From the IMG/VR virus record IMGVR_UViG_3300045988_163835: a stretch of DNA of 36,596 nt; one strand, given 5' to 3'. A model generated the notes under the pieces. That model searched no databases and was not told the DNA's origin. It worked only from the letters and a program-made list of their open reading frames with translations. A program made the position numbers and the translations under genes. Of the stretch, positions 1,880 through 24,385 are shown piece after piece. The stretch comes from a virus. Each line of letters starts with the position of its first letter. Within the stretch, counting starts at the first letter, position 1.

Positions 1880-2521
1880 TTATTTCAATCCCATAATTTT
1901 TCGCATATCTGCAAGTTCATCTTTTGTTTCTTCTTTTCCATCGTCACCAATTTTAAAACCTTTTTGTTTATCTTCCGTTTTACTAATTAGTTCTGGAAAA
2001 TCTTTTAATAAGTCTTCGATTTCAGTATTTAATTTACTTTCATCTAATTGACCATCCTTATCAAGAATGTTTTTCTTGTCTACTAATCTTACTGCTCTAG
2101 TGATTTTTTCATCTTTAACATTCTTTCTAAGTAAAGCGTTTTCGATTTTGGTATTAATTGCTTCAAGAGTGGCTTTTTCTGCTTTTTTAATAGCCTCTTG
2201 TGTTTTTTCATCAACACTTTTAGATTTTTCCTCTTCTTCTCTTGCCTTTGCTAAAATTGATTTAGCCTTTTCAACATCATCAATACCTAAATCCCTCAAT
2301 TGCTTTGCTAAAGCCTTTTGTTCGTTTTTTAAACTGATATCATTTAATTCTTTGTCAGTATACTTTTTTTCTTCTACTTTTTTATCAGTTTCTTTTACTC
2401 CATCATCTTTAGCATTTTTTTGATTTTCTACTGATTCATTGTCAGCAGTGTTATTTGCATTATTTTCTTCCCCACTATCAGCAAATAATTGAATGTTTAG
2501 CGGCATTAATTCTTTTTTCAT
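1880..2521 (-). CDS. Scaffold protein (DUF4355-like)
   Basis: Start moved to ATG 2521 (AAGGAG RBS). N-terminal MPLNIQLFA motif followed by Glu/Lys-rich coiled-coil. Lies upstream of the capsid gene. Confidence 0.75.
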   Translation of the reverse strand: MKKELMPLNIQLFADSGEENNANNTADNESVENQKNAKDDGVKETDKKVEEKKYTDKELNDISLKNEQKALAKQLRDLGIDDVEKAKSILAKAREEEEKSKSVDEKTQEAIKKAEKATLEAINTKIENALLRKNVKDEKITRAVRLVDKKNILDKDGQLDESKLNTEIEDLLKDFPELISKTEDKQKGFKIGDDGKEETKDELADMRKIMGLK

Positions 2522-2991: not shown

Positions 2992-3000
2992 ATTTGACAC

Positions 3001-3006
3001 ATTATA
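3001..3006 (-). promoter_or_regulatory. Possible -10 box (TATAAT) for the tRNA cassette
   Basis: A minus-strand TATAAT ends 9 nt upstream of the tRNA 5' end. No convincing -35. Confidence 0.3.
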
Positions 3007-3031
3007 GTTTTTGTGCTATAATGTATATATT

Positions 3032-3077
3032 AAAAGTTGTAGTCGTGGTGACCTTTTCACCTAGTGTTACAACTTTT
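3032..3077 (-). terminator. Candidate terminator hairpin at the end of the MuF gene
   Basis: 10-bp outer stem (aaaagttgta/tacaactttt) plus an inner ggtga/tcacc helix. It overlaps the MuF stop codon. The U-run is short. Confidence 0.4.
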
Positions 3078-4716
3078 ATTTTTTTGTATTTATATTTTTG
3101 AATATTAAAAATTGTTTATCTTTCTTTATTCCAATTTCCTCAACCCATGGTGCTTTCCACTTAAATAATTTATCAATTTGTTTTACTAATTCATTAATAG
3201 TCAAAGGAGAGTCAGTAGCTTCAAACAAAAACTTTTTTGCTTGTTTTTCTTTTCCATCAACATTGTGGAATAATAGTTGGCTACTTTTGCCAGTAACAAT
3301 TTTCATATCATAGTTTCCTAAAAATTGTTTTTTCTTATATATAGTACAATCTGCAACGCTAATATTTTCTGGAAATTCCACTTCAGGATTTAATTGTATA
3401 TTTAATCCTGTTTTTTTTACCAACCAATCAGCAAACTCTCTTTCATTTTGTTTTGTTCTATATTTTACAAAATGATCATCAATAATATATTTCTCTCCGT
3501 TGTAATTAAATATTTCATCTTTTTCTAATACCTTTGTTTCTTTATTATTTACATCAGAAATATCAGACCATTGATTTGTTATATCAACATAAGAATTATT
3601 AATAAGTTTTTCTTTATCGTTTATCCATTGTTCTTTTCTATTAGCAAACATTTGAATATTAATAGGAGATATTGAACCATTTTCTAATCTATCAAATCTT
3701 TTGATATTTCTATCAATATAATTTAATTCATTATTATTAATTTCATCAATTCTATTATTTATCCAATTAATATCATTTTCATATTCTTCATCAGAATAAT
3801 TTTCTATATCATCAGCCTCCGGATAATAAGTCGTTAAGCCATGGCGACAATTTGGATGTAAAAACCCTTGTTTCATTGCTTCACTTAATAGCATGTACTT
3901 ACCATCTTTTTTTGTGCCACCAGAATACACATCATCAATAAATATTTTATTTTCCCATTTTTGACATATTGGACAAGCACCACCATGAGATGTTGATTGG
4001 ACTAATACTCTTCCTATAGATTTTCTAAAGTCTCCTTCCCCCATTAATTGAGCCCTTAAGCTTGCAGTTCTAACAGCCATTTGAGAATAACTGGCAATAT
4101 TGACTCTTCTGCCATTCTTATATTCGACACAGTTAAATCCTCTACTTAAAAAGTCTTTATTTGCTTCATCTATAGCAAGTTTAGTTTTTTGTAGTTCAGT
4201 TAATTCTTTAGTTGCCATTCTAGCAGACTGTTTTTCAGTAAAAACTCCATTAGCAACAAAAAAAGCACTCTTATGAATAACTTGCCTATACTGATCATTT
4301 GCCATTCTTAAAACTGCTGTGTTAGCGGTTTTTAAGTCATTATTTACAACTTTTATCAAAGCATTGACCTTTCTATCATTTGTTCTAAAAAAACTATGAT
4401 TCATTATTTTATTAGGTTTTAAATTTTTGCCCATTACTTTATTATACTGATTAATTGCATTAATAGAGCCTTGCTTAAGTTCTCTTTTTAAATGCTGTGA
4501 TACTTCATCAGATAATCCCTTAGTATAACCACCAATAATATCTTTATTTTCTCTTTGATATCTTTTTAATTCTTTCAACTTTTCTGATTGCCATTGAGAA
4601 TATTCAAAGCCGGTATCTTTTTCTTCTTTAAGATGTCTTTTATAGTTTCTTTTCATCGAAGATATCAATTCTATTTCCATATCTTCATATATTTTTTTTA
4701 TATTATAATCATTCAT
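3076..4716 (-). CDS. Minor head protein (SPP1 gp7 / Mu F-like) fused to a C-terminal PD-(D/E)xK-like domain
   Basis: 546 aa. The N-terminal ~300 aa sit in the MuF position after the portal and carry a CPICQ...HPNCRH motif. The C-terminal ~220 aa are additional and show E(425)REFADWL ... ADCTIY ... YDMKIV spacing. Confidence 0.8.
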   Translation of the reverse strand: MNDYNIKKIYEDMEIELISSMKRNYKRHLKEEKDTGFEYSQWQSEKLKELKRYQRENKDIIGGYTKGLSDEVSQHLKRELKQGSINAINQYNKVMGKNLKPNKIMNHSFFRTNDRKVNALIKVVNNDLKTANTAVLRMANDQYRQVIHKSAFFVANGVFTEKQSARMATKELTELQKTKLAIDEANKDFLSRGFNCVEYKNGRRVNIASYSQMAVRTASLRAQLMGEGDFRKSIGRVLVQSTSHGGACPICQKWENKIFIDDVYSGGTKKDGKYMLLSEAMKQGFLHPNCRHGLTTYYPEADDIENYSDEEYENDINWINNRIDEINNNELNYIDRNIKRFDRLENGSISPINIQMFANRKEQWINDKEKLINNSYVDITNQWSDISDVNNKETKVLEKDEIFNYNGEKYIIDDHFVKYRTKQNEREFADWLVKKTGLNIQLNPEVEFPENISVADCTIYKKKQFLGNYDMKIVTGKSSQLLFHNVDGKEKQAKKFLFEATDSPLTINELVKQIDKLFKWKAPWVEEIGIKKDKQFLIFKNINTKK

Positions 4717-20185: not shown

Positions 20186-20494
20186 TTATTTAAAATCTTT
20201 TAACAATTCTTCAAGCATTATTTTATCTTCTGGATCAAGTTCAACTTTTTTAACTTCTATTTCAAACCATCTAGGTCTTTTCAATTCTTTTATCTCTGCT
20301 AATGTTGGCATAAACTTTTTAGTTTTAATAGCTTCTATAATCATATTTTCGTATTCATCAGCAGAACAATCTCTCAACTCTTCATACCACAAGTTGAATA
20401 TTCTGATATCCATTTTTTTGTTGTAATTTTCTTCTAACATTTCTGTTATTTTTCTAAAATCTCTTTTATTCATTTTCCCATTTCTCTCTTTCAT
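20186..20494 (-). CDS. Hypothetical protein (about 95-102 aa)
   Basis: ORF overlapping the organizer 3' end. The start is ambiguous (20494 or 20473). Confidence 0.5.
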   Translation of the reverse strand: MKERNGKMNKRDFRKITEMLEENYNKKMDIRIFNLWYEELRDCSADEYENMIIEAIKTKKFMPTLAEIKELKRPRWFEIEVKKVELDPEDKIMLEELLKDFK

Positions 20495-21293
20495 CAGTTT
20501 TTGATTCTTTTTTATTATTAAACTTTTCGTTTTCTTTTTTTGCTAGCTCCAATGTAGTTATTTTCTTTCTTTGCCAACCTTCTAATATTCGGTCGATATA
20601 CTTAATCGAGCAAGCATTATTACAAACTGCTATCTGTGTAGCATAAACAATCAGTTCCTCTGAAATGTTATTGTCTACCCAAGATTTAATTACATCACAT
20701 TCTAATGGTGCTATAGTTCTTCCGAAGTTTTTTTCTATTGTAGAAAATATATTACTAAATATTAATTCTTCTTTATTATCTAAATTATTTAGTTTAGTAC
20801 TATTATCTAAATTATTTATATTAATATTATTATTTATATTAAGATCAGAATCAGAAACAGATACAGATACAGATGTATACCTAGGGTATGGATACCCTAT
20901 CGATACCCTATACCTTTCTAATATTTTTTCTAATTCTTTTCTTAATTTTTCACTCTTAATATATTGAATTAAACTTTCTACTTTTTTTAATAATTTTTCA
21001 CTTTTAGTCCAATTATATTTGTGCCAATTTTTTATAAGTATCTCTTTCGTTTCCTCCGCATAGAGTATTACTTTATGAACCTGTTCCATCCTAGTCAGTA
21101 GTTCCTCTACCTCACTTTTGTCTAGTTCAAGTTCATTTGACATCTGTCTAATTGAAACTTCATAGCAACCAATCAGATTTGTATGAGGATTAGTTAATAA
21201 ATATAATAGAAAATACTTATCTTTATAAGTAAAGTTATCTACTACTTTGTTGTCTTCCCAAAATGATAATGATACATTGCGATATATTGCCAT
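20466..21293 (-). CDS. Replisome organizer with a DnaD-like C-terminal domain
   Basis: Organizer-type N-terminus (SLSFWEDNKV ... LLTNPHTNLIGCYE). DnaD-like C-terminus (FSTIEKNFGRTIAPLECDVIKSW ... IKYIDRILEGWQRKKI). AGGAGG RBS. Confidence 0.8.
   Translation of the reverse strand: MAIYRNVSLSFWEDNKVVDNFTYKDKYFLLYLLTNPHTNLIGCYEVSIRQMSNELELDKSEVEELLTRMEQVHKVILYAEETKEILIKNWHKYNWTKSEKLLKKVESLIQYIKSEKLRKELEKILERYRVSIGYPYPRYTSVSVSVSDSDLNINNNININNLDNSTKLNNLDNKEELIFSNIFSTIEKNFGRTIAPLECDVIKSWVDNNISEELIVYATQIAVCNNACSIKYIDRILEGWQRKKITTLELAKKENEKFNNKKESKTDEREKWENE
20774..20915. promoter_or_regulatory. Candidate origin of replication inside the organizer gene (iterons plus AT-rich tract)
   Basis: 18-bp direct repeat tattatctaaattattta at 20774 and 20801. 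(cagaa/cagat)n hexamers at 20845-20874. 8-bp inverted repeat tagggtat/atacccta at 20882-20899. gataccctat repeated at 20891 and 20902 with 11-bp phasing. Confidence 0.45.
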
Positions 21294-21329
21294 TTAATCC
21301 TCCTTTACTCAAATCTCAAAACCCCAAAT

Positions 21330-21358
21330 TTGACAAAAACCATACTTTTTGCTATAAT
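21330..21358 (+). promoter_or_regulatory. Consensus sigma-A-type promoter: TTGACA, 17 bp, TGcTATAAT
   Basis: -35 TTGACA at 21330-21335, 17-nt spacer, extended -10 TG at 21350-21351, and -10 TATAAT at 21353-21358. Confidence 0.7.
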
Positions 21359-21364
21359 TATGTA

Positions 21365-21446
21365 TGTAAAAAGTTAACACGAACTTTTTATTTTTGTTAT
21401 TTGTCTGCTAGTTGTGTTACCGAACTATTACTAGCAGACATTTTTT
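21365..21446 (+). ncRNA. About 80-nt antisense sRNA candidate (two stem-loops, intrinsic terminator)
   Basis: SL1 is aaaaagtt/aacttttt (21368-21389). SL2 is tgtctgctagt/actagcagaca (21402-21440), followed by T6 (21441-21446). No ORF longer than 5 codons. Antisense to the minus-strand early operon. Confidence 0.6.
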
Positions 21447-21540
21447 GTATTGTAACATCATTTGTAACTGCTAATGTAATTAACACTAACAATCCATAAA
21501 AGATAATTATTCCTTTATTTCTATTTAAGAATGTTTTCAT
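21397..21540 (-). CDS. 47-aa hydrophobic peptide (N-terminal basic residues plus a TM helix)
   Basis: Hand-translated MKTFLNRNKGIIIFYGLLVLITLAVTNDVTIQKMSASNSSVTQLADK. The ATG abuts the stop of the upstream ORF. The RBS is weak (AAAGG, 11 nt upstream). Confidence 0.4.
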   Translation of the reverse strand: MKTFLNRNKGIIIFYGLLVLITLAVTNDVTIQKMSASNSSVTQLADK

Positions 21541-21825
21541 TTACATCATCGCCTTTCTCATCTTATTTGCTTCTCTTCTAATTAAAGCAACATCTATATT
21601 TAACTTTTCTACTACTTTTCTAGTAGGAACTAATATAGGCCTAGTTTTGAAATAAAATTCATTGTTTTTATCCATTTCATCACAGATTGATTTTCTAAAA
21701 TTATTTATCGCATTAGTCCCTAATGGTAATATAATTTTTAAATCTTCTGTACTTAACCAAGGTTTATTTAATACTTTTTCCTGTTCTATATAATTACTAA
21801 CAGGTCTCTTTTTATTTTTTCCCAT
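21541..21825 (-). CDS. Small basic DNA-binding-like protein (94 aa; possible excisionase/HTH)
   Basis: ORF following the cro-like gene. The WLSTEDLKIILPLGTNAINNFRK segment resembles excisionase-type HTH proteins. The functional call is weak. Confidence 0.5.
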   Translation of the reverse strand: MGKNKKRPVSNYIEQEKVLNKPWLSTEDLKIILPLGTNAINNFRKSICDEMDKNNEFYFKTRPILVPTRKVVEKLNIDVALIRREANKMRKAMM

Positions 21826-21886
21826 TTTATTTTCCTTTCTCGTGCTAGACTTATTTAGATATTCCAGTATCTATTTTTATTCAATT

Positions 21887-22102
21887 TTATTGAACAATTT
21901 TAGTAAAAAAATAATCATTAATTTTTGAATTTGGTATGTTTAACAATTCGCATGCTTTTGTAATTTCATTTTGTTTAAAATCAACTTTATTATTTATTTT
22001 TAAACTAATAGTTCTTTCAGATAAACCCATTTTAGTTGCAAAATTACCATTATTTTTAAATTTCTCTACTATCTTACCTTGCAGTTTTGAATAATCGTAC
22101 AT
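21887..22102 (-). CDS. Cro-like XRE-family HTH regulator (71 aa)
   Basis: Start moved to ATG 22102 (AAAGGAG RBS). HTH segment FATKMGLSERTISLKINNK. Divergent from the repressor gene. Confidence 0.7.
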   Translation of the reverse strand: MYDYSKLQGKIVEKFKNNGNFATKMGLSERTISLKINNKVDFKQNEITKACELLNIPNSKINDYFFTKIVQ

Positions 22103-22133
22103 TTTTTCTCCTTTCTGTTCAATTACCTTGAAC
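22077..22133. promoter_or_regulatory. Two TTCAA-N5-TTGAA operator-like palindromes (22077-22091 and 22118-22132)
   Basis: attcaatttttttgaac and gttcaattaccttgaac. The second sits at the predicted start of the cro-like transcript. Confidence 0.4.
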
Positions 22134-22139
22134 AATTTA

Positions 22140-22168
22140 ATAATACCACACTATTTTGTTGATGTCAA
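22140..22168 (-). promoter_or_regulatory. Early lytic promoter (PR-like): TTGACA, 17 bp, TGgTATTAT
   Basis: On the minus strand, -35 TTGACA at 22168-22163 and -10 TATTAT at 22145-22140 with an upstream TG. The -35 lies within the palindrome gttgatgtcaac (22158-22169). Confidence 0.6.
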
Positions 22169-22219
22169 CATAAAAATTCAATTTTTTTGAACTTTTTGAT
22201 TTATTTTTTTTTTATGATG

Positions 22220-22228
22220 TGTTATAAT
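22220..22228 (+). promoter_or_regulatory. Extended -10 (TGtTATAAT) for the repressor gene (PRM-like)
   Basis: TGTTATAAT ends 17 nt upstream of the repressor ATG region (GGGAGG RBS). No good -35. Confidence 0.45.
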
Positions 22229-22245
22229 ATATTTGGGAGGCAAAT

Positions 22246-23136
22246 ATGAAAGAAAGAAATACTAGTGATAGACTTAAAGAAATAATGGCAAAAAATGGAT
22301 TAAGGCAAATTGATATTTTAAATAAGGCAATTCCTTTTTGTAAGAAATACAATGTAAAATTAGGTAGAAATGATTTGAGTCAATATATTTCTGGAAAAGT
22401 TGAACCCAGCCAAAAAAAATTAACTGTTCTTGCTGAAGCCCTTGAAGTAAACGAAGCATGGTTAATGGGATATGATGTACCTATGGAAACAGAAATTAAA
22501 AGACAAAACAATAAATCTCGAATTTATTTTGGACTTACATTACTTGAATTATTTAGATATTATAAAATTCATATTAATAACAATATAAATTTTAAAACTT
22601 TTTGTGACTTAATTGGAATTGAAGAAAGTAGAATGCTAGACTTTATTAATTACAAAACATCACCTAATAGAGAAGAAATAAATAGAATATATAACTTATA
22701 TAATATGGATTCTGAAGAAAAACTTTTTGATGGTGAATTATATGAAGAATTGATAGAAAAGAATAACGGTTCTTGGGGTATTCAAATGATAAAAAATAGT
22801 ATGCCAGAAGAAGATTATATCAACGAAAATAATTTATCGTTAATTATCACTTCACTTTTGCCAGATAAGATTAAATTAGATAGTAATTCATTAGAAAATA
22901 CAAATAAAAATAAAATAATTTTAAAACAATTACTTTTAGACAATAATTTAATAACATCAGGAAAAGAAATTAATAAAGAAGATATATCAAATATCAAAAC
23001 CTTTTTAGAAGATAATATAGATTATATTAACAATAAATTAAACGATGAAGAAAGAAATAAAATAACATTAAACCACTCTTCTTCTAAAATCAGCGGAATG
23101 GAAAAAGAAAAACTAATTGAATCAAAAAATGAATAA
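22246..23136 (+). CDS. cI-like repressor: XRE HTH plus a long C-terminal domain
   Basis: N-terminal HTH (LRQIDILNKAI ... LSQYISGKVEPSQKKLTVLAEALEVNEAWLMG). 296 aa. Divergent from the cro-like gene and adjacent to int. Confidence 0.8.
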   Translation: MKERNTSDRLKEIMAKNGLRQIDILNKAIPFCKKYNVKLGRNDLSQYISGKVEPSQKKLTVLAEALEVNEAWLMGYDVPMETEIKRQNNKSRIYFGLTLLELFRYYKIHINNNINFKTFCDLIGIEESRMLDFINYKTSPNREEINRIYNLYNMDSEEKLFDGELYEELIEKNNGSWGIQMIKNSMPEEDYINENNLSLIITSLLPDKIKLDSNSLENTNKNKIILKQLLLDNNLITSGKEINKEDISNIKTFLEDNIDYINNKLNDEERNKITLNHSSSKISGMEKEKLIESKNE

Positions 23137-23213
23137 AAAAAAGACTAGAACTGCTGGAACAGAACTAGTCGTAGTACATAAAATAATCAAAATCTAGCAC
23201 GATTAGGATTTTT

Positions 23214-23237
23214 CTATGCAATATAATTATAGCATAG
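23214..23237. promoter_or_regulatory. Near-perfect 24-bp palindrome enclosing a TATAAT upstream of int
   Basis: ctatgcaatataattatagcatag. TATAAT at 23222-23227, about 55 nt upstream of the int ATG. Confidence 0.35.
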
Positions 23238-23281
23238 AAACAATTCTATTTCAATAATAAAATGAAAGGAAAGTGATTTTT

Positions 23282-24385
23282 ATGCCAGTATATAAAACAA
23301 AAACAGAAAAAACGAAAGATAATAGGATATGGTACTTTAAATGCAATTATAAAGATATCTATGGAAATATAAAGTCAAAGAAAAGCAAGAAGTTTTCTAC
23401 TAAAGAAGAGGCAATTAAAGAAGAGGCAAAATTTTTAATTTTAACAGGTAACACAACTACTATGTCTCCTACCTTCGATGACATATATAATGAGTATCTT
23501 ATATATAAAAAAAAGAGTTGCAGAGAAACTACCATAATCAGAATTAAAGGATATTATAAACACATTGGAAAAATATTAGGAAATATAAAAATCGAAAAGC
23601 TTACTGCCAAACAATATTTATTATTTCAAGATGAAATGAATGAATTAGGATTATCTACAGTATATAAAAATCAATTGCATTCATTAGTATTATCTTTAAT
23701 TGATTATGCCAATTTACTATATAATATTGATTCAAAAGTTCCTAAAAGTATTGGTAAATTTAAAAATCCTACCGAAATGAAAAAAGAAATGCTTTTTTGG
23801 ACTTATGATGAGTTCAGTAAGTTCATTAGTATTGTAGATGATAATATGTACAAAGTCTTTTTTGAAATATTGTACTTTTGTGGACTAAGAAGAGGTGAAA
23901 TACAGGCTCTAACGTGGAACGATATAAATTTTATAAAAGGGACAATCTCAATAAATAAAACTTTAACATCAAAAATAAAGGGGCAAAAATATGTCATATT
24001 TCCTCCAAAAACACAATCTAGTAATAGAACTATTCCAATCCCTAAAAATGCATTAGCAGGTTTAAAAACACTTTATAAGGAATATTCTGTATTGGATGGA
24101 TTTGAAAATGAATGCTTTGTATTTGGAACTTTCAAGCCACTAGCAGATACTTCAATAGAGAGAAAGAAAAATAAATGGTGTGATATAGCTGAAGTCAAAA
24201 GAATTAGAATTCATGACTTTAGACATTCTTGTGCTTCTCTATTAATCAATAATGGTGCAAACATAACTATTGTATCAAAATATTTAGGTCATAGTGATAT
24301 ATCAATGACACTAAATAGATACTCTCATATGTATGATTCTAAATTGGAAGAAGTAATTAATTTAATTGAAAATATAAATAAATAA
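23282..24385 (+). CDS. int: Tyrosine recombinase (phage integrase)
   Basis: Catalytic motifs GLRRGE, HDFRHSCASLL and LGHSDISMTLNRYSH. Start moved to ATG 23282 (AAAGGAAAG RBS). Confidence 0.9.
   Translation: MPVYKTKTEKTKDNRIWYFKCNYKDIYGNIKSKKSKKFSTKEEAIKEEAKFLILTGNTTTMSPTFDDIYNEYLIYKKKSCRETTIIRIKGYYKHIGKILGNIKIEKLTAKQYLLFQDEMNELGLSTVYKNQLHSLVLSLIDYANLLYNIDSKVPKSIGKFKNPTEMKKEMLFWTYDEFSKFISIVDDNMYKVFFEILYFCGLRRGEIQALTWNDINFIKGTISINKTLTSKIKGQKYVIFPPKTQSSNRTIPIPKNALAGLKTLYKEYSVLDGFENECFVFGTFKPLADTSIERKKNKWCDIAEVKRIRIHDFRHSCASLLINNGANITIVSKYLGHSDISMTLNRYSHMYDSKLEEVINLIENINK

What the first reader, a model, noticed from the sequence alone, without database searches (positions are those of the whole stretch)
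21330..21446. Full-consensus promoter plus intrinsic terminator define an ~80-nt antisense RNA opposing the early/replication operon
On the plus strand, which is otherwise silent here, there is TTGACA (21330-21335), exactly 17 bp of spacer, and TGcTATAAT (21350-21358). This is a 6/6 + 6/6 promoter with an extended -10, stronger on paper than the phage's own PR- and PRM-like promoters. About 7 nt downstream begins an ORF-free stretch that folds into an 8-bp stem-loop (21368-21389) and an 11-bp stem (21402-21412 with 21430-21440) followed by T6. That is a classic two-hairpin sRNA ending in a rho-independent terminator. It is fully complementary to the minus-strand early mRNA. It covers the last ~50 nt of the 47-aa hydrophobic ORF and part of the spacer before the replisome-organizer gene. 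Two known architectures fit. One is lambda OOP RNA (77 nt, antisense to the cII 3' end, just upstream of replication gene O). The other is type I toxin-antitoxin pairs of Firmicute prophages, in which the antitoxin RNA overlaps the 3' end of a small hydrophobic toxin mRNA. It could therefore damp leaky early or replication expression in lysogens, tune the lysis-lysogeny decision, or neutralise a toxic peptide.
Basis: partly seen in the sequence, partly recalled or inferred. Interest (0 to 1): 0.8.

Follow-up and report, generated by a model that had tools for sequence, protein, structure and literature searches.

The report
Conserved antisense small-RNA gene in phage
A perfect promoter and a terminator in this gut-bacterial virus mark a very probably real gene for an ~80-base RNA that runs against the virus's early genes just before its replication genes, much like the classic OOP RNA of phage lambda; it is conserved in about 48 related viral sequences, but its function is still inferred.

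Summary
TTGACA, a 17-nt spacer and TGcTATAAT lie at 21330-21358 (+). A 10-bp A/U hairpin (SL1) follows, then an 11-bp hairpin and T6 (SL2, ending at 21446).

A perfect promoter with an extended -10 is expected 0.002 times per window. Two occur, both followed by a hairpin and T-run.

The unit is found in 48 related loci (IMG/VR, human-gut metagenomes, Bacilli MAGs). The -35, the 17-nt spacing, TGnTAyAAT, the +1 region and the SL1 arms are almost invariant. The spacer sequence, the SL1 loop (8 alleles) and both flanks vary freely.

Genes on either side are swapped: at least 5 kinds of downstream gene and 3 kinds of small membrane ORF. SL2 keeps pairing through compensatory changes. One ORF type has an unrelated hairpin and T-run at the same place.

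My best reading is a constitutive counter-transcript with lambda-OOP geometry that damps early and replication expression. This is an analogue, not a homologue. The type I antitoxin reading fails several defining features.

There are no expression data. Two more counter-oriented short units exist (2994-3083 +, 23254-23142 -). Interest is moderate.

The parts
21330..21335 (+). -35 hexamer TTGACA
   Evidence: TTGAC is invariant in 26 distinct cassette sequences from 48 loci; the sixth base is A or T.
21336..21349 (+). Promoter spacer: the length is fixed so that the hexamers are 17 nt apart, but the sequence is free
   Evidence: 12 of 14 positions vary among relatives (pi 0.29), while the spacing never changes.
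21350..21358 (+). Extended -10, TGcTATAAT
   Evidence: TG is invariant and the hexamer is TATAAT or TACAAT in all relatives. The same TGCTATAAT occurs in the two other short units.
21359..21367 (+). Start region TATGTATGT, with the predicted transcription start at about 21364-21366
   Evidence: One variable site in 9. The start position is inferred from the usual 6-8 nt distance from the -10 and is not mapped.
21366..21391 (+). SL1: 10-bp A/U-rich hairpin with core arms AAAAAGTT/AACTTTTT and a 6-nt loop
   Evidence: Fold (-6.6 kcal/mol). The arms are invariant in all loci, even where the search pattern allowed transitions. The loop has 8 alleles and all 6 of its positions vary.
21391..21395 (+). 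T-run after SL1 (T5 here, T7-T8 in relatives that lack SL2): a possible first, leaky terminator
21402..21440 (+). SL2: terminator hairpin with an 11-bp stem and a 17-nt loop
   Evidence: In 17 distinct sequences 100% of cells are paired, 2 pairs show compensatory changes and 2 show wobble changes.
21441..21446 (+). T6 tract of the terminator, the predicted 3' end of the RNA
   Evidence: T5-T8 in all type i relatives.
21364..21446 (+). Predicted non-coding counter-transcript of about 81-85 nt
   Evidence: Fold z-scores of -4.8 and -5.0. No Rfam family and no tRNA. No expression data.
21397..21540 (-). 47-aa signal-anchor-like small ORF; its last 50 nt are complementary to the RNA
   Evidence: The family is narrow: 35 clusters at 70% identity or more, from Bacilli MAGs. 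A homologous variant carries a lipobox. No Pfam or NCBIfam match.
21294..21396 (.). 103-nt spacer of the early operon that holds the promoter and SL1
20466..21293 (-). DnaD-like replisome organizer, the first gene of the replication module downstream of the opposed site
   Evidence: Pfam DnaB_2 at 1.4e-20 and phrog_6251 at 2e-46.
22140..22168 (-). Early lytic promoter (TTGACA-17-TGgTATTAT), the source of the opposed mRNA, flanked by repressor operators

Best explanation
This is a real, constitutively transcribed gene for a short non-coding RNA of about 81-85 nt here, and possibly about 30 nt when transcription stops at the first hairpin. It lies head-on against the early lytic operon of a temperate siphovirus of uncultured gut Bacilli.

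The host sigma-A polymerase starts at about 21364-21366, transcribes SL1, and stops either at the T-run after SL1 or at the stronger SL2/T6 terminator inside the 3' end of the 47-aa ORF.

The unit sits exactly at the junction between the switch and early genes (MOR/Cro-like gene, 94-aa ORF, small membrane ORF) and the replication module.

I infer that it lowers expression across that junction in two ways:
- The RNA pairs with the complementary stretch of the early mRNA. This makes a duplex that host double-strand-specific or other RNases cut, as OOP does to cII mRNA.
- Polymerases on a very strong convergent promoter collide with, or block, those coming from the early promoter.

The net effect would be a threshold. 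Leaky early transcription in a lysogen, or early transcripts of an incoming phage carrying the same cassette, would not reach the replication genes or yield the small membrane protein, while full derepression would override it.

Shown: the sequence elements, their improbability by chance, the conservation footprint, the kept pairing, and the portability of the unit.

Inferred: that the RNA is made, where it ends, and everything about its effect.
For: **Promoter.**
- It is 12/12 with an extended -10, expected 0.002 times per window.
- Footprint over 26 distinct sequences from 48 loci, as pi per segment: 0.39 in the 15 nt upstream; 0.025 in the -35; 0.29 in the spacer, whose length never changes; 0.013 in the -10; 0.024 in the +1 region; 0 in the SL1 arms; 0.36 in the SL1 loop; 0.25 in the tail.
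- Loci found with a pattern that did not include the promoter (L048, L049, L050, L052) all carry TTGACA-17-TGnTAyAAT.

**Terminators.**
- SL2 is 100% paired in 17 distinct sequences, with G-C/G-U/A-U at one pair and G-C/A-U at another. One of these changes costs an amino-acid change in the overlapping ORF.
- The lipobox ORF type has an unrelated 11-14-bp hairpin and T-run at the same place.
- Both terminators work in one direction only (sequence).

**Portability.** The roughly 65-bp core is kept while at least 5 different genes lie on one side and 3 kinds of small ORF on the other. It is also found in phages with a different repressor/Cro module.

**Geometry compared with lambda, same tools.** The oop promoter lies beside the start of O and its terminator lies inside the 3' end of cII; by my own reckoning from those coordinates and the known 77-nt RNA, the overlap with cII is about 50 nt. 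Here the overlap is 50 nt and the RNA is 81-85 nt, directly before the replication initiator gene.

**Precedent for the mechanism.** OOP acts on cII through RNase III, and the prophage antisense RNA STnc6030 excludes superinfecting phage (PMC7067206 and references therein).

**Other units.** Two further units of the same design in this genome, one of them conserved in 25 or more loci, show that this promoter-plus-hairpin signature marks conserved genes in this phage group.
Against: - There is no transcript evidence of any kind. The host is uncultured and no cultured phage matches.
- The SL1 arms never vary, so there is no covariation. An RNA hairpin cannot be told apart from a DNA palindrome on that evidence alone.
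- One lineage (the 64-68-aa two-TM ORF type) has no second terminator within 350 nt. There the RNA is either about 30 nt long or of unknown length.
- The RNA does not reach the ribosome-binding site of the replication gene; its 5' end is about 70 nt away. Any effect on replication genes must therefore be indirect, through cleavage, decay or polymerase collision.
- A small membrane-protein gene always abuts the cassette, which the junction-damping model does not require.
Confidence: 0.55

Rival explanations
1. Type I toxin-antitoxin pair. The small membrane protein is toxic, and the convergent RNA is its antitoxin, pairing with the 3' end of its mRNA and triggering decay, as with RatA/txpA or SR4/bsrG in Bacillus prophages and the RCd RNAs of C. 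difficile prophages.
For: - A small hydrophobic ORF (47-68 aa) abuts the cassette in all 48 loci, although three different ORF types are involved.
- The RNA is convergent and overlaps 50 nt of the ORF's 3' end.
- The RNA promoter is strong and the setting is a prophage, as described for such systems (PMC6563280).
Against: - The ORF has no promoter of its own. It starts 1 nt after the stop of the 94-aa ORF, and the best upstream match is 9/12.
- The C-terminal tail is polar with net charge about 0, not lysine-rich.
- Homologues carry a lipobox (IAGC/IVGC), so they are exported lipoprotein precursors.
- There is no match to any Pfam or NCBIfam toxin family at E <= 10.
- The invariant part of the RNA (SL1) lies outside the ORF.
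- The two-TM type has no defined overlapping terminator.
Confidence: 0.15
2. An RNA that acts in trans between phages. A prophage makes the RNA constitutively, and it pairs with the same conserved stretch in the early mRNA of incoming phages, including phages with different repressors. This gives an RNA-based layer of superinfection exclusion. The hypervariable SL1 loop would be the recognition (kissing) determinant that lets phages escape each other.
For: - The cassette is shared by phages with different repressor/Cro modules.
- The SL1 loop has 8 alleles and all 6 positions vary, while both arms and 9 nt upstream are fixed.
- There is precedent: the prophage antisense RNA STnc6030 excludes BTP1 (PMC7067206). 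From my own knowledge, loop changes define the specificity of plasmid copy-control RNAs.
Against: - An unconstrained hairpin loop is also what plain neutral drift predicts.
- The loop differences are mostly transitions.
- Loop alleles could not be tested against immunity types.
- No host or phage trans target was found. The only 13-nt match, in int, does not co-vary.
Confidence: 0.12
3. A DNA- or transcription-level element rather than an RNA regulator. Options are: a strong promoter whose firing away from the nearby origin helps open it; a polymerase-bound roadblock only; a leaky promoter for repressor establishment (like lambda PRE) gated by the two terminators; or merely a conserved recombination linker between modules.
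For: - The minimal conserved unit is just a promoter, a weak hairpin and a T-run.
- Repeats inside the organizer gene 330-400 bp away could be origin iterons, giving the same layout as oop and ori in lambda.
- In the two-TM lineage a read-through transcript would run antisense through cro and into the repressor gene on its sense strand.
- Module breakpoints fall at both edges of the cassette.
Against: - A mere recombination linker would not show a promoter-shaped footprint with free spacer and loop.
- A PRE-like role is hard to square with a perfect constitutive promoter and a strong, selected terminator.
- The SL1 palindrome is unique in the genome and differs from the repressor operators.
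- A second unit has the same stem base but 32 nt between the arms, which fits an RNA hairpin and not a dimer-binding site.
- GC skew gives no origin signal.
Confidence: 0.13
4. A chance promoter-like and hairpin-like sequence in an A+T-rich genome, with no function.
For: - The genome is 28% G+C, and weaker promoter-like matches are no commoner than in shuffles (63 against 60).
- SL1 alone is weak (-6.6 kcal/mol, z = -2.5).
Against: - The expected number of perfect promoters with TG is 0.002 per window.
- The footprint across 48 loci, the compensatory changes and the non-homologous terminator at the same place all argue against chance.
Confidence: 0.03

Closest known systems
OOP RNA of phage lambda (77 nt; Krinke and Wulff 1987, 1991, as cited in PMC7067206) and OOP-BTP1 of Salmonella prophage BTP1
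   Same: - Both are short RNAs from their own promoter and end at an intrinsic terminator.
- Both are transcribed against the early rightward-type operon.
- Both start in the gap just before the replication initiator gene and end inside the 3' end of the gene upstream, with about 50 nt of overlap.
- In both, possible origin repeats lie a few hundred bp behind the promoter, inside the initiator gene. The geometry was checked with the same tools.
   Different: - There is no sequence relationship.
- The host is a Gram-positive-type Bacilli lineage, and the phage has a TP901-1-type CI and a DUF739 partner.
- The overlapped gene is a small membrane or lipoprotein ORF, not a CII-type activator.
- The promoter is a perfect consensus, against 9/12 for oop in the same scan.
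- There are two hairpins with a possible first stop.
- The conserved part is the 5' hairpin outside the ORF.
- The unit is portable between different neighbouring genes.
Type I antitoxin RNAs of Firmicute prophages (RatA/txpA, SR4/bsrG, SR5/bsrE; RCd8-14 of C. difficile; review PMC6563280)
   Same: A convergent small RNA overlaps the 3' end of a gene for a small hydrophobic protein. The RNA promoter is strong and the location is a prophage.
   Different: The ORF is embedded in the early operon without its own promoter. Its tail is uncharged, a homologue has a lipobox, and it matches no toxin family. See the membership test.
Prophage antisense RNAs that act on phage mRNAs: P22 sar, P1/P7 c4, BTP1 STnc6030 (PMC7067206)
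   Same: They are expressed from a prophage and are complementary to lytic-cycle mRNAs. They affect immunity or superinfection.
   Different: Those lie in other genome positions (the ant region or late genes) and differ in length. None is a portable promoter-hairpin cassette at the early/replication junction.
Convergent-promoter transcriptional interference in coliphage 186/P2 switches (my own knowledge)
   Same: A strong promoter faces another across a short distance, so polymerase collisions lower output of the opposing unit.
   Different: There the two promoters are the lytic and lysogenic promoters themselves, 62 bp apart. Here the opposing promoter is about 800 bp downstream of the early promoter and its transcript is ended at once.

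Membership tests
Sigma-70/sigma-A promoter | -35 TTGACA and -10 TATAAT 17 +/- 1 nt apart, optionally with TG at -15/-14 | tested here: met
   12/12 match, 17-nt spacer, TG present.
Sigma-70/sigma-A promoter | Among relatives, the hexamers and their spacing are conserved while the spacer sequence drifts | tested here: met
   pi is 0.025 (-35) and 0.013 (-10) against 0.29 in the spacer. The spacing is 17 nt in all 26 distinct sequences.
Sigma-70/sigma-A promoter | Transcription actually starts there | not testable with these tools
   No transcriptome is available and the host is uncultured.
Intrinsic (rho-independent) terminator | A stable hairpin directly followed by a U-tract on the transcribed strand only | tested here: met
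   SL2 has 11 bp with 5 G-C pairs and is followed by T6. No T-run follows it on the opposite strand. SL1 meets the form only weakly, with 1 G-C pair and -6.6 kcal/mol.
Intrinsic (rho-independent) terminator | Pairing is kept in evolution | tested here: met
   SL2 is 100% paired, with 2 compensatory and 2 wobble pairs. A non-homologous hairpin and T-run sits at the same place in type iii. SL1 is inconclusive because its arms are invariant.
Lambda OOP RNA | Sequence or structure homology to OOP | tested here: not met
   No similarity is evident. Rfam gives no hit here, but it also gives none on lambda's own oop region, so Rfam cannot decide. The phage lineage is unrelated.
Lambda OOP RNA | A short RNA antisense to the 3' end of the gene immediately upstream of the replication initiator gene, with its own promoter in that gap and a terminator inside the upstream gene | tested here: met
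   compared.
Lambda OOP RNA | The overlapped gene is the CII lysogeny activator, and the effect depends on RNase III | tested here: not met
   The overlapped gene is a 47-aa membrane ORF with no HTH and no family match. RNase III dependence is not testable here.
Type I toxin-antitoxin | Toxin of under 60 aa, hydrophobic, with a transmembrane segment (PMC6563280) | tested here: met
   47 aa with one hydrophobic segment, GIIIFYGLLVLITLAV. The other lineage is 64-68 aa with two segments.
Type I toxin-antitoxin | Charged (often lysine-rich) C-terminus (PMC6563280) | tested here: not met
   The tail is TNDVTIQKMSASNSSVTQLADK, with 2 acidic and 2 basic residues. The basic cluster is N-terminal.
Type I toxin-antitoxin | A self-contained module: the toxin mRNA has its own promoter, convergent with the antitoxin | tested here: not met
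   The ORF's ATG lies 1 nt after the stop of the 94-aa ORF. There is no promoter of 10/12 or better within 300 nt upstream. Type ii is packed the same way.
Type I toxin-antitoxin | The antisense RNA overlaps the toxin mRNA | tested here: met
   A predicted overlap of 50 nt at the 3' end.
Type I toxin-antitoxin | Homology to a known toxin family | tested here: not met
   No Pfam or NCBIfam toxin family at E <= 10.
Type I toxin-antitoxin | Toxicity of the peptide and rescue by the RNA | not testable with these tools
   This needs an experiment.

The most novel reading that the evidence does not exclude
These gut Bacilli phages use portable 'counter-transcript cassettes' as a general design element. 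Each cassette is a perfect promoter, a hairpin and a one-way terminator, set head-on in the gap between two co-oriented genes. They sit at module junctions: early|replication, repressor|integrase, and head genes|tRNA.

In this reading, the cassette studied here also acts in trans between heteroimmune phages. Its hypervariable loop on an invariant stem would be the specificity determinant, making an RNA-based incompatibility or exclusion system like plasmid copy-control RNAs.
Probability: 0.12. Interest if true: 0.72.

Novelty: new member of a known kind. Interest (0 to 1): 0.5.

Why it matters
Short antisense RNAs that tune the lysis-lysogeny circuitry are textbook for lambda, P22 and P1, but are hardly documented for temperate phages of Gram-positive-type gut bacteria.

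This is a well-supported candidate with lambda-OOP geometry in a phage that otherwise uses a TP901-1-type CI/MOR switch. That would argue that a counter-transcript at the early/replication junction is a convergent solution, not a lambdoid peculiarity.

The unit is a roughly 65-bp portable cassette with a clear footprint, so it is easy to test in a heterologous host and easy to annotate in viromes. Gene callers see nothing here.

If the RNA acts between phages, it would add an RNA layer to cross-immunity in the gut virome.

Tried and rejected
- **Rfam.** At gathering thresholds on the whole window, and at E <= 10 on 20800-22300, only the tRNA and a chance tsr33 hit appeared. As a control, lambda's own oop region also gives nothing, so Rfam cannot speak to OOP membership.
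- **Cultured phages.** There was no DNA match, near or distant, in 50,697 phage records. By protein, only the N-terminal third of the organizer matches Bacillus, Geobacillus and Listeria phages, at under 60% identity.
- **A miscounted pattern.** One scan used 20 N instead of 18, found nothing and was wasted. The corrected promoter-only pattern added only 7 unrelated promoters.
- **More distant organizer homologues** (L008-L030, 30-56% identity). None has the cassette. L008 has an antisense 10/12 promoter that is not evidently related.
- **Search for SL1 stem covariation.** A metagenome pattern that allowed transitions in every stem position still returned only the invariant arms.
- **Trans targets.** The only long match is 13 nt of the SL2 loop against int mRNA at 23447-59. 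It does not co-vary with loop changes and is absent where the integrase differs, so I take it as chance. A 12-nt match to the start of the 94-aa ORF is a low-complexity A-run.
- **SL1 as a repeated operator.** No other copy occurs beyond chance. The real operators are TTCAA-N7-TTGAA.
- **LexA box.** By eye there is no GAAC-N4-GTTC.
- **GC skew.** It follows the coding strand only and gives no origin signal.
- **Peptide-signal idea.** I considered the small ORF as an arbitrium- or RRNPP-like propeptide sensed by the 296-aa repressor. I dropped it because the repressor's N-terminal domain is TP901-1 CI, there was no TPR hit, and the two genes are not adjacent.
- **Not tested.** An RNA anti-CRISPR (solitary repeat) reading was considered but could not be tested without the host CRISPR arrays.
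Full report
**1. What is in the sequence**

On the plus strand, TTGACA (21330-35) is followed by exactly 17 nt and then TGcTATAAT (21350-58).

- After 9 nt comes a hairpin with arms AAAAAGTT/AACTTTTT and a 6-nt loop. Folding extends it to 10 bp (21366-21391, -6.6 kcal/mol). T5 follows it.
- Ten bases further on, an 11-bp stem (21402-12 with 21430-40, 17-nt loop) is followed by T6 (21441-46).
- An RNA from about 21364 to 21448 folds at -24.7 kcal/mol, with z = -4.8 against dinucleotide shuffles.
- On the opposite strand neither hairpin is followed by a T-run. Both therefore act only on a plus-strand transcript.

The window is 28% G+C. A first-order Markov model expects 0.038 perfect promoters of this form and 0.002 with the TG. 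Two are observed, and each is followed by a hairpin and T-run within 55-81 nt.

- A 78-aa plus-strand ORF (21263-21499) formally spans the site. It starts before the promoter and ends after the terminator.
- The plus strand also carries int, the repressor gene and a second short unit.

**2. Context**

The window is a circularly permuted genome of a temperate siphovirus. Terminase, portal, head, tail and lysis genes lie on the minus strand. The integrase (23273-24385) and a 296-aa repressor (22246-23136) lie on the plus strand.

- The repressor's N-terminal domain matches the solved CI of lactococcal phage TP901-1, by my reading of PDB entries 6tri, 5a7l and 3zhm (E from 1e-23 to 4e-19).
- The divergent first early gene is a DUF739 protein.
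- Three copies of TTCAA-N7-TTGAA-type operators lie at 21879-900, 22117-38 and 22176-97. Two of them flank the early promoter TTGACA-17-TGgTATTAT (22168-22140, minus strand).
- The early operon then reads: DUF739 gene, a 94-aa ORF, a 47-aa ORF with a basic N-terminus and one hydrophobic segment (21540-21397), a 103-nt gap, and then a DnaD-like replisome organizer (21293-20466), a helicase-loader-like protein, SSB and RecT.

The unit under study lies in that gap and points against the operon.

**3. Relatives**

No cultured phage matches. Related sequences are plentiful in uncultured data:
- IMG/VR contigs found with the organizer protein.
- IMG/VR contigs found with a 23-nt pattern across the -10 and the first arm.
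- GTDB MAGs labelled Bacillota, Bacilli or Clostridia, found with a pattern covering only the hairpin.
- Human-gut metagenome contigs.
- Contigs found through homologues of the 47-aa protein.

In all there are 48 loci and 26 distinct cassette sequences.

The conservation footprint, as pi per segment:

| Segment | pi |
|---|---|
| 15 nt upstream of the -35 | 0.39 |
| -35 hexamer (TTGACA or TTGACT) | 0.025 |
| spacer (12 of 14 positions vary; length always 17) | 0.29 |
| -10 hexamer (TATAAT or TACAAT) | 0.013 |
| 9-nt start region | 0.024 |
| SL1 arms | 0 |
| SL1 loop (8 alleles, all 6 positions vary) | 0.36 |
| 12 nt after SL1 | 0.25 |

TG is invariant.

Sampling was partly conditioned on these patterns, but each element was left free in at least one search:
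- The promoter was free.
- The -35, the spacing and the 3' arm were free.
- Transitions in every stem position were allowed.

This is the footprint of a working promoter and a constrained hairpin. It is not what a passively shared stretch would show.

**4. Portability**

The roughly 65-bp core is kept while both neighbours change.

- On the promoter side, at least five different genes start 30-60 nt away. They are the DnaD-like organizer, two other replication-type proteins (beginning MDDNKSFIKLHRKMLKW... and MNEINNFTFYRNYYE...) and two unknowns.
- On the other side there are three kinds of small ORF:
  - type i, the 47-49-aa family of this window;
  - type iii, 50-62 aa, homologous in the N-terminus but with a lipobox (IAGC/IVGC) and a different tail;
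  - type ii, 64-68 aa with two hydrophobic segments.
- Type ii phages also have a different repressor/Cro pair.
- Identity breaks off within about 15 nt of the -35 on one side and right after the T-run on the other.

**5. The terminators**

Seventeen distinct type i sequences were aligned.
- SL2 is paired in 100% of cells.
- One pair runs G-C, G-U, A-U. Another runs G-C, A-U. Two more change only to wobble pairs. No change breaks a pair.
- The stem is encoded by the codons for ..MSAS.. and ..QLADK. One compensatory pair joins a synonymous change in one arm to an amino-acid change in the other (CTA to TTA with AGT to AAC). This points to selection on the RNA pairing.
- Type iii has a quite different 11-14-bp hairpin followed by TTTTTATT at the same distance.
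- Type ii has no second hairpin within 350 nt, but there SL1 is followed by T7-T8.

So the conserved minimal unit is the promoter, SL1 and a U-tract. SL2 looks like a strong back-stop. SL1 may be a leaky first terminator, giving a roughly 30-nt product as well as the roughly 83-nt product.

Because the SL1 arms never vary, there is no covariation for SL1. Two observations favour an RNA hairpin over a protein-binding palindrome:
- The palindrome is unique in the genome and is unlike the operators.
- A second unit in this phage uses the same stem base (AAAAGTT...AACTTTT plus a T-run) with 32 nt, not 6, between the arms.

**6. Two more units of the same design (outside the finding)**

- Unit 2: TTGACA-17-TGCTATAAT at 2994-3022 (+), then a 12-bp-stem hairpin and T7 (to 3083; -18.5 kcal/mol, z = -6.0). 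It lies in the gap between the minor head protein gene and tRNA-Pro, both on the minus strand. It is identical in 5 IMG/VR contigs.
- Unit 3: TTGAAA-17-TGCTATAAT at 23254-23226 (-), then a two-hairpin RNA of about 80 nt ending in T8 at 23142 (-26.7 kcal/mol, z = -6.2). It lies in the gap between the repressor and integrase genes, both on the plus strand. It is conserved in 25 or more loci, one of which has a different promoter.

All three point against their neighbours and end at one-way terminators. This raises confidence that the signature marks real genes. It also suggests a common logic of counter-transcripts at module junctions.

**7. What it most likely does**

Shown: a conserved, portable promoter-hairpin-terminator unit placed head-on in the early operon at the border of the replication module.

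Inferred: it is transcribed constitutively, since no operator lies near it.

Also inferred: it lowers expression across the junction by two routes that are not exclusive.
- The RNA pairs with the early mRNA, which is then cut. This is the OOP mechanism, RNase III-dependent in lambda (Krinke and Wulff, cited in PMC7067206).
- Polymerases collide with, or are blocked by, those on a very strong convergent promoter.

The RNA ends about 70 nt short of the organizer's ribosome-binding site, so direct translational block of that gene is excluded.

The same scans run on lambda find the oop promoter beside the start of O, its terminator inside the 3' end of cII, and the ori iterons about 350 bp behind the promoter inside O. 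Here the layout is the same, including two 32-nt repeats inside the organizer gene 330-400 bp behind the promoter. Whether those repeats are an origin is untested.

**8. Rivals**

- Type I toxin-antitoxin: the constant presence of a small membrane ORF next to the cassette favours it. However, the ORF lacks its own promoter, has an uncharged tail, has lipoprotein homologues, matches no toxin family, and is not overlapped by the invariant part of the RNA (criteria from PMC6563280).
- Trans-acting exclusion between heteroimmune phages, with the variable loop as specificity determinant: attractive (precedent STnc6030, PMC7067206) but unsupported beyond the loop pattern, which neutral drift also explains.
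- DNA-level roles (origin activation, roadblock only, a PRE-like promoter gated by terminators, a recombination linker) cannot be excluded. They fit the footprint and the selected terminator less well.
- Chance is effectively excluded.

**9. Novelty and score**

This is a non-homologous analogue of a known kind, a phage cis-antisense counter-transcript of OOP type. It sits in a phage lineage and switch type where none has been described in the papers I could search.

- It is a good annotation and a testable candidate.
- It is not a new principle unless the cassette or trans-exclusion reading proves right.
- Interest is 0.5.
- Confidence that the unit is a real transcription unit is about 0.85.
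- Confidence in the stated function is about 0.55.

Noticed in passing
window 2994-3083 (+): This is a second perfect promoter (TTGACA-17-TGCTATAAT, 2994-3022). It is followed at once by a hairpin (AAAAGTTGTA...TACAACTTTT with an inner GGTGA/TCACC stem) and T7, predicting a ~55-nt RNA (-18.5 kcal/mol, z = -6.0). It points against the minor head protein gene (3076-4716, -) and tRNA-Pro(tgg) (2915-2991, -) and fills the gap between them. It is identical in 5 IMG/VR contigs. Its stem base resembles SL1. It lies 18.3 kb from the first unit, which is half of the 36.6-kb window and probably a coincidence.
   Followed up: partly
window 23142-23254 (-): This is a third counter-oriented unit, lying between the repressor and integrase genes, both on the plus strand. 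It has TTGAAA-17-TGCTATAAT, then a two-hairpin RNA of about 80 nt ending in T8 right at the repressor's stop codon (-26.7 kcal/mol, z = -6.2). It is conserved at 81-100% identity in 25 or more related loci. One locus (L074) has a different promoter but the same core, AAAAATCCTRATCGTGCTAGATT, and the same terminator. There is no Rfam match.
   Followed up: partly
window 21879-21900, 22117-22138, 22176-22197; repressor 22246-23136 (+); DUF739 gene 21887-22135 (-): The genetic switch looks like the TP901-1 type. The repressor's N-terminal domain matches solved TP901-1 CI structures (E 1e-23), its partner is a DUF739 protein, and there are three operator copies (TTCAA-N7-TTGAA). One of the three lies downstream of the DUF739 gene, like O_D of TP901-1. 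The repressor has an unusually long C-terminal part of about 200 aa with no family match.
   Followed up: partly
window 20927-20958 and 20975-21006 (inside the organizer gene): Two 32-nt direct repeats (84% identical, 48 nt apart) lie inside the replisome-organizer gene, 330-400 bp behind the antisense promoter. They could be origin iterons, as in TP901-1 and lambda, or simply a repeated peptide (KSEKL..K.E).
   Followed up: no
window 21397-21540 (-); L032, L033, L041; L002, L031, L050, L052: The small ORF next to the cassette comes in three forms. One is a 47-49-aa signal-anchor-like form. A second is a homologous 50-62-aa form with a lipobox (IAGC/IVGC), which makes it a likely lipoprotein precursor. 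The third is an unrelated 64-68-aa protein with two transmembrane segments. In the first form, the conserved residues (..SAS.. and QLADK) are exactly those encoded by the two arms of the terminator hairpin.
   Followed up: partly
L087 (Bacillus phage Gamma, NC_073041) 2403-2490, minus strand: In the gap before the replisome-organizer gene of phage Gamma there is also a hairpin with a T-rich tail, oriented against the operon (2426-2403). A weak promoter-like site (9/12 with TG) lies about 35 nt upstream of it. This is a faint hint that a counter-transcript before the organizer gene may be more widespread.
   Followed up: partly
window 23447-23459 (+), inside int: A 13-nt perfect complement to the top of SL2 (GGTAACACAACTA) lies inside the integrase gene. 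It does not co-vary with SL2 loop changes in relatives, and it is absent where the integrase differs, so I take it as chance.
   Followed up: yes
window 3001-3006 (-): Read on the minus strand, the -35 region of unit 2 contains a perfect TATAAT 9 nt upstream of the mature 5' end of tRNA-Pro. A tRNA promoter and the counter-oriented promoter may therefore overlap face to face. The matching -35 is poor (3/6).
   Followed up: no
L091 (lambda 38200-39300): Rfam release 15 returns no family for lambda's own oop region at E <= 1. Rfam-negative results therefore cannot be used to rule OOP-like RNAs in or out.
   Followed up: yes
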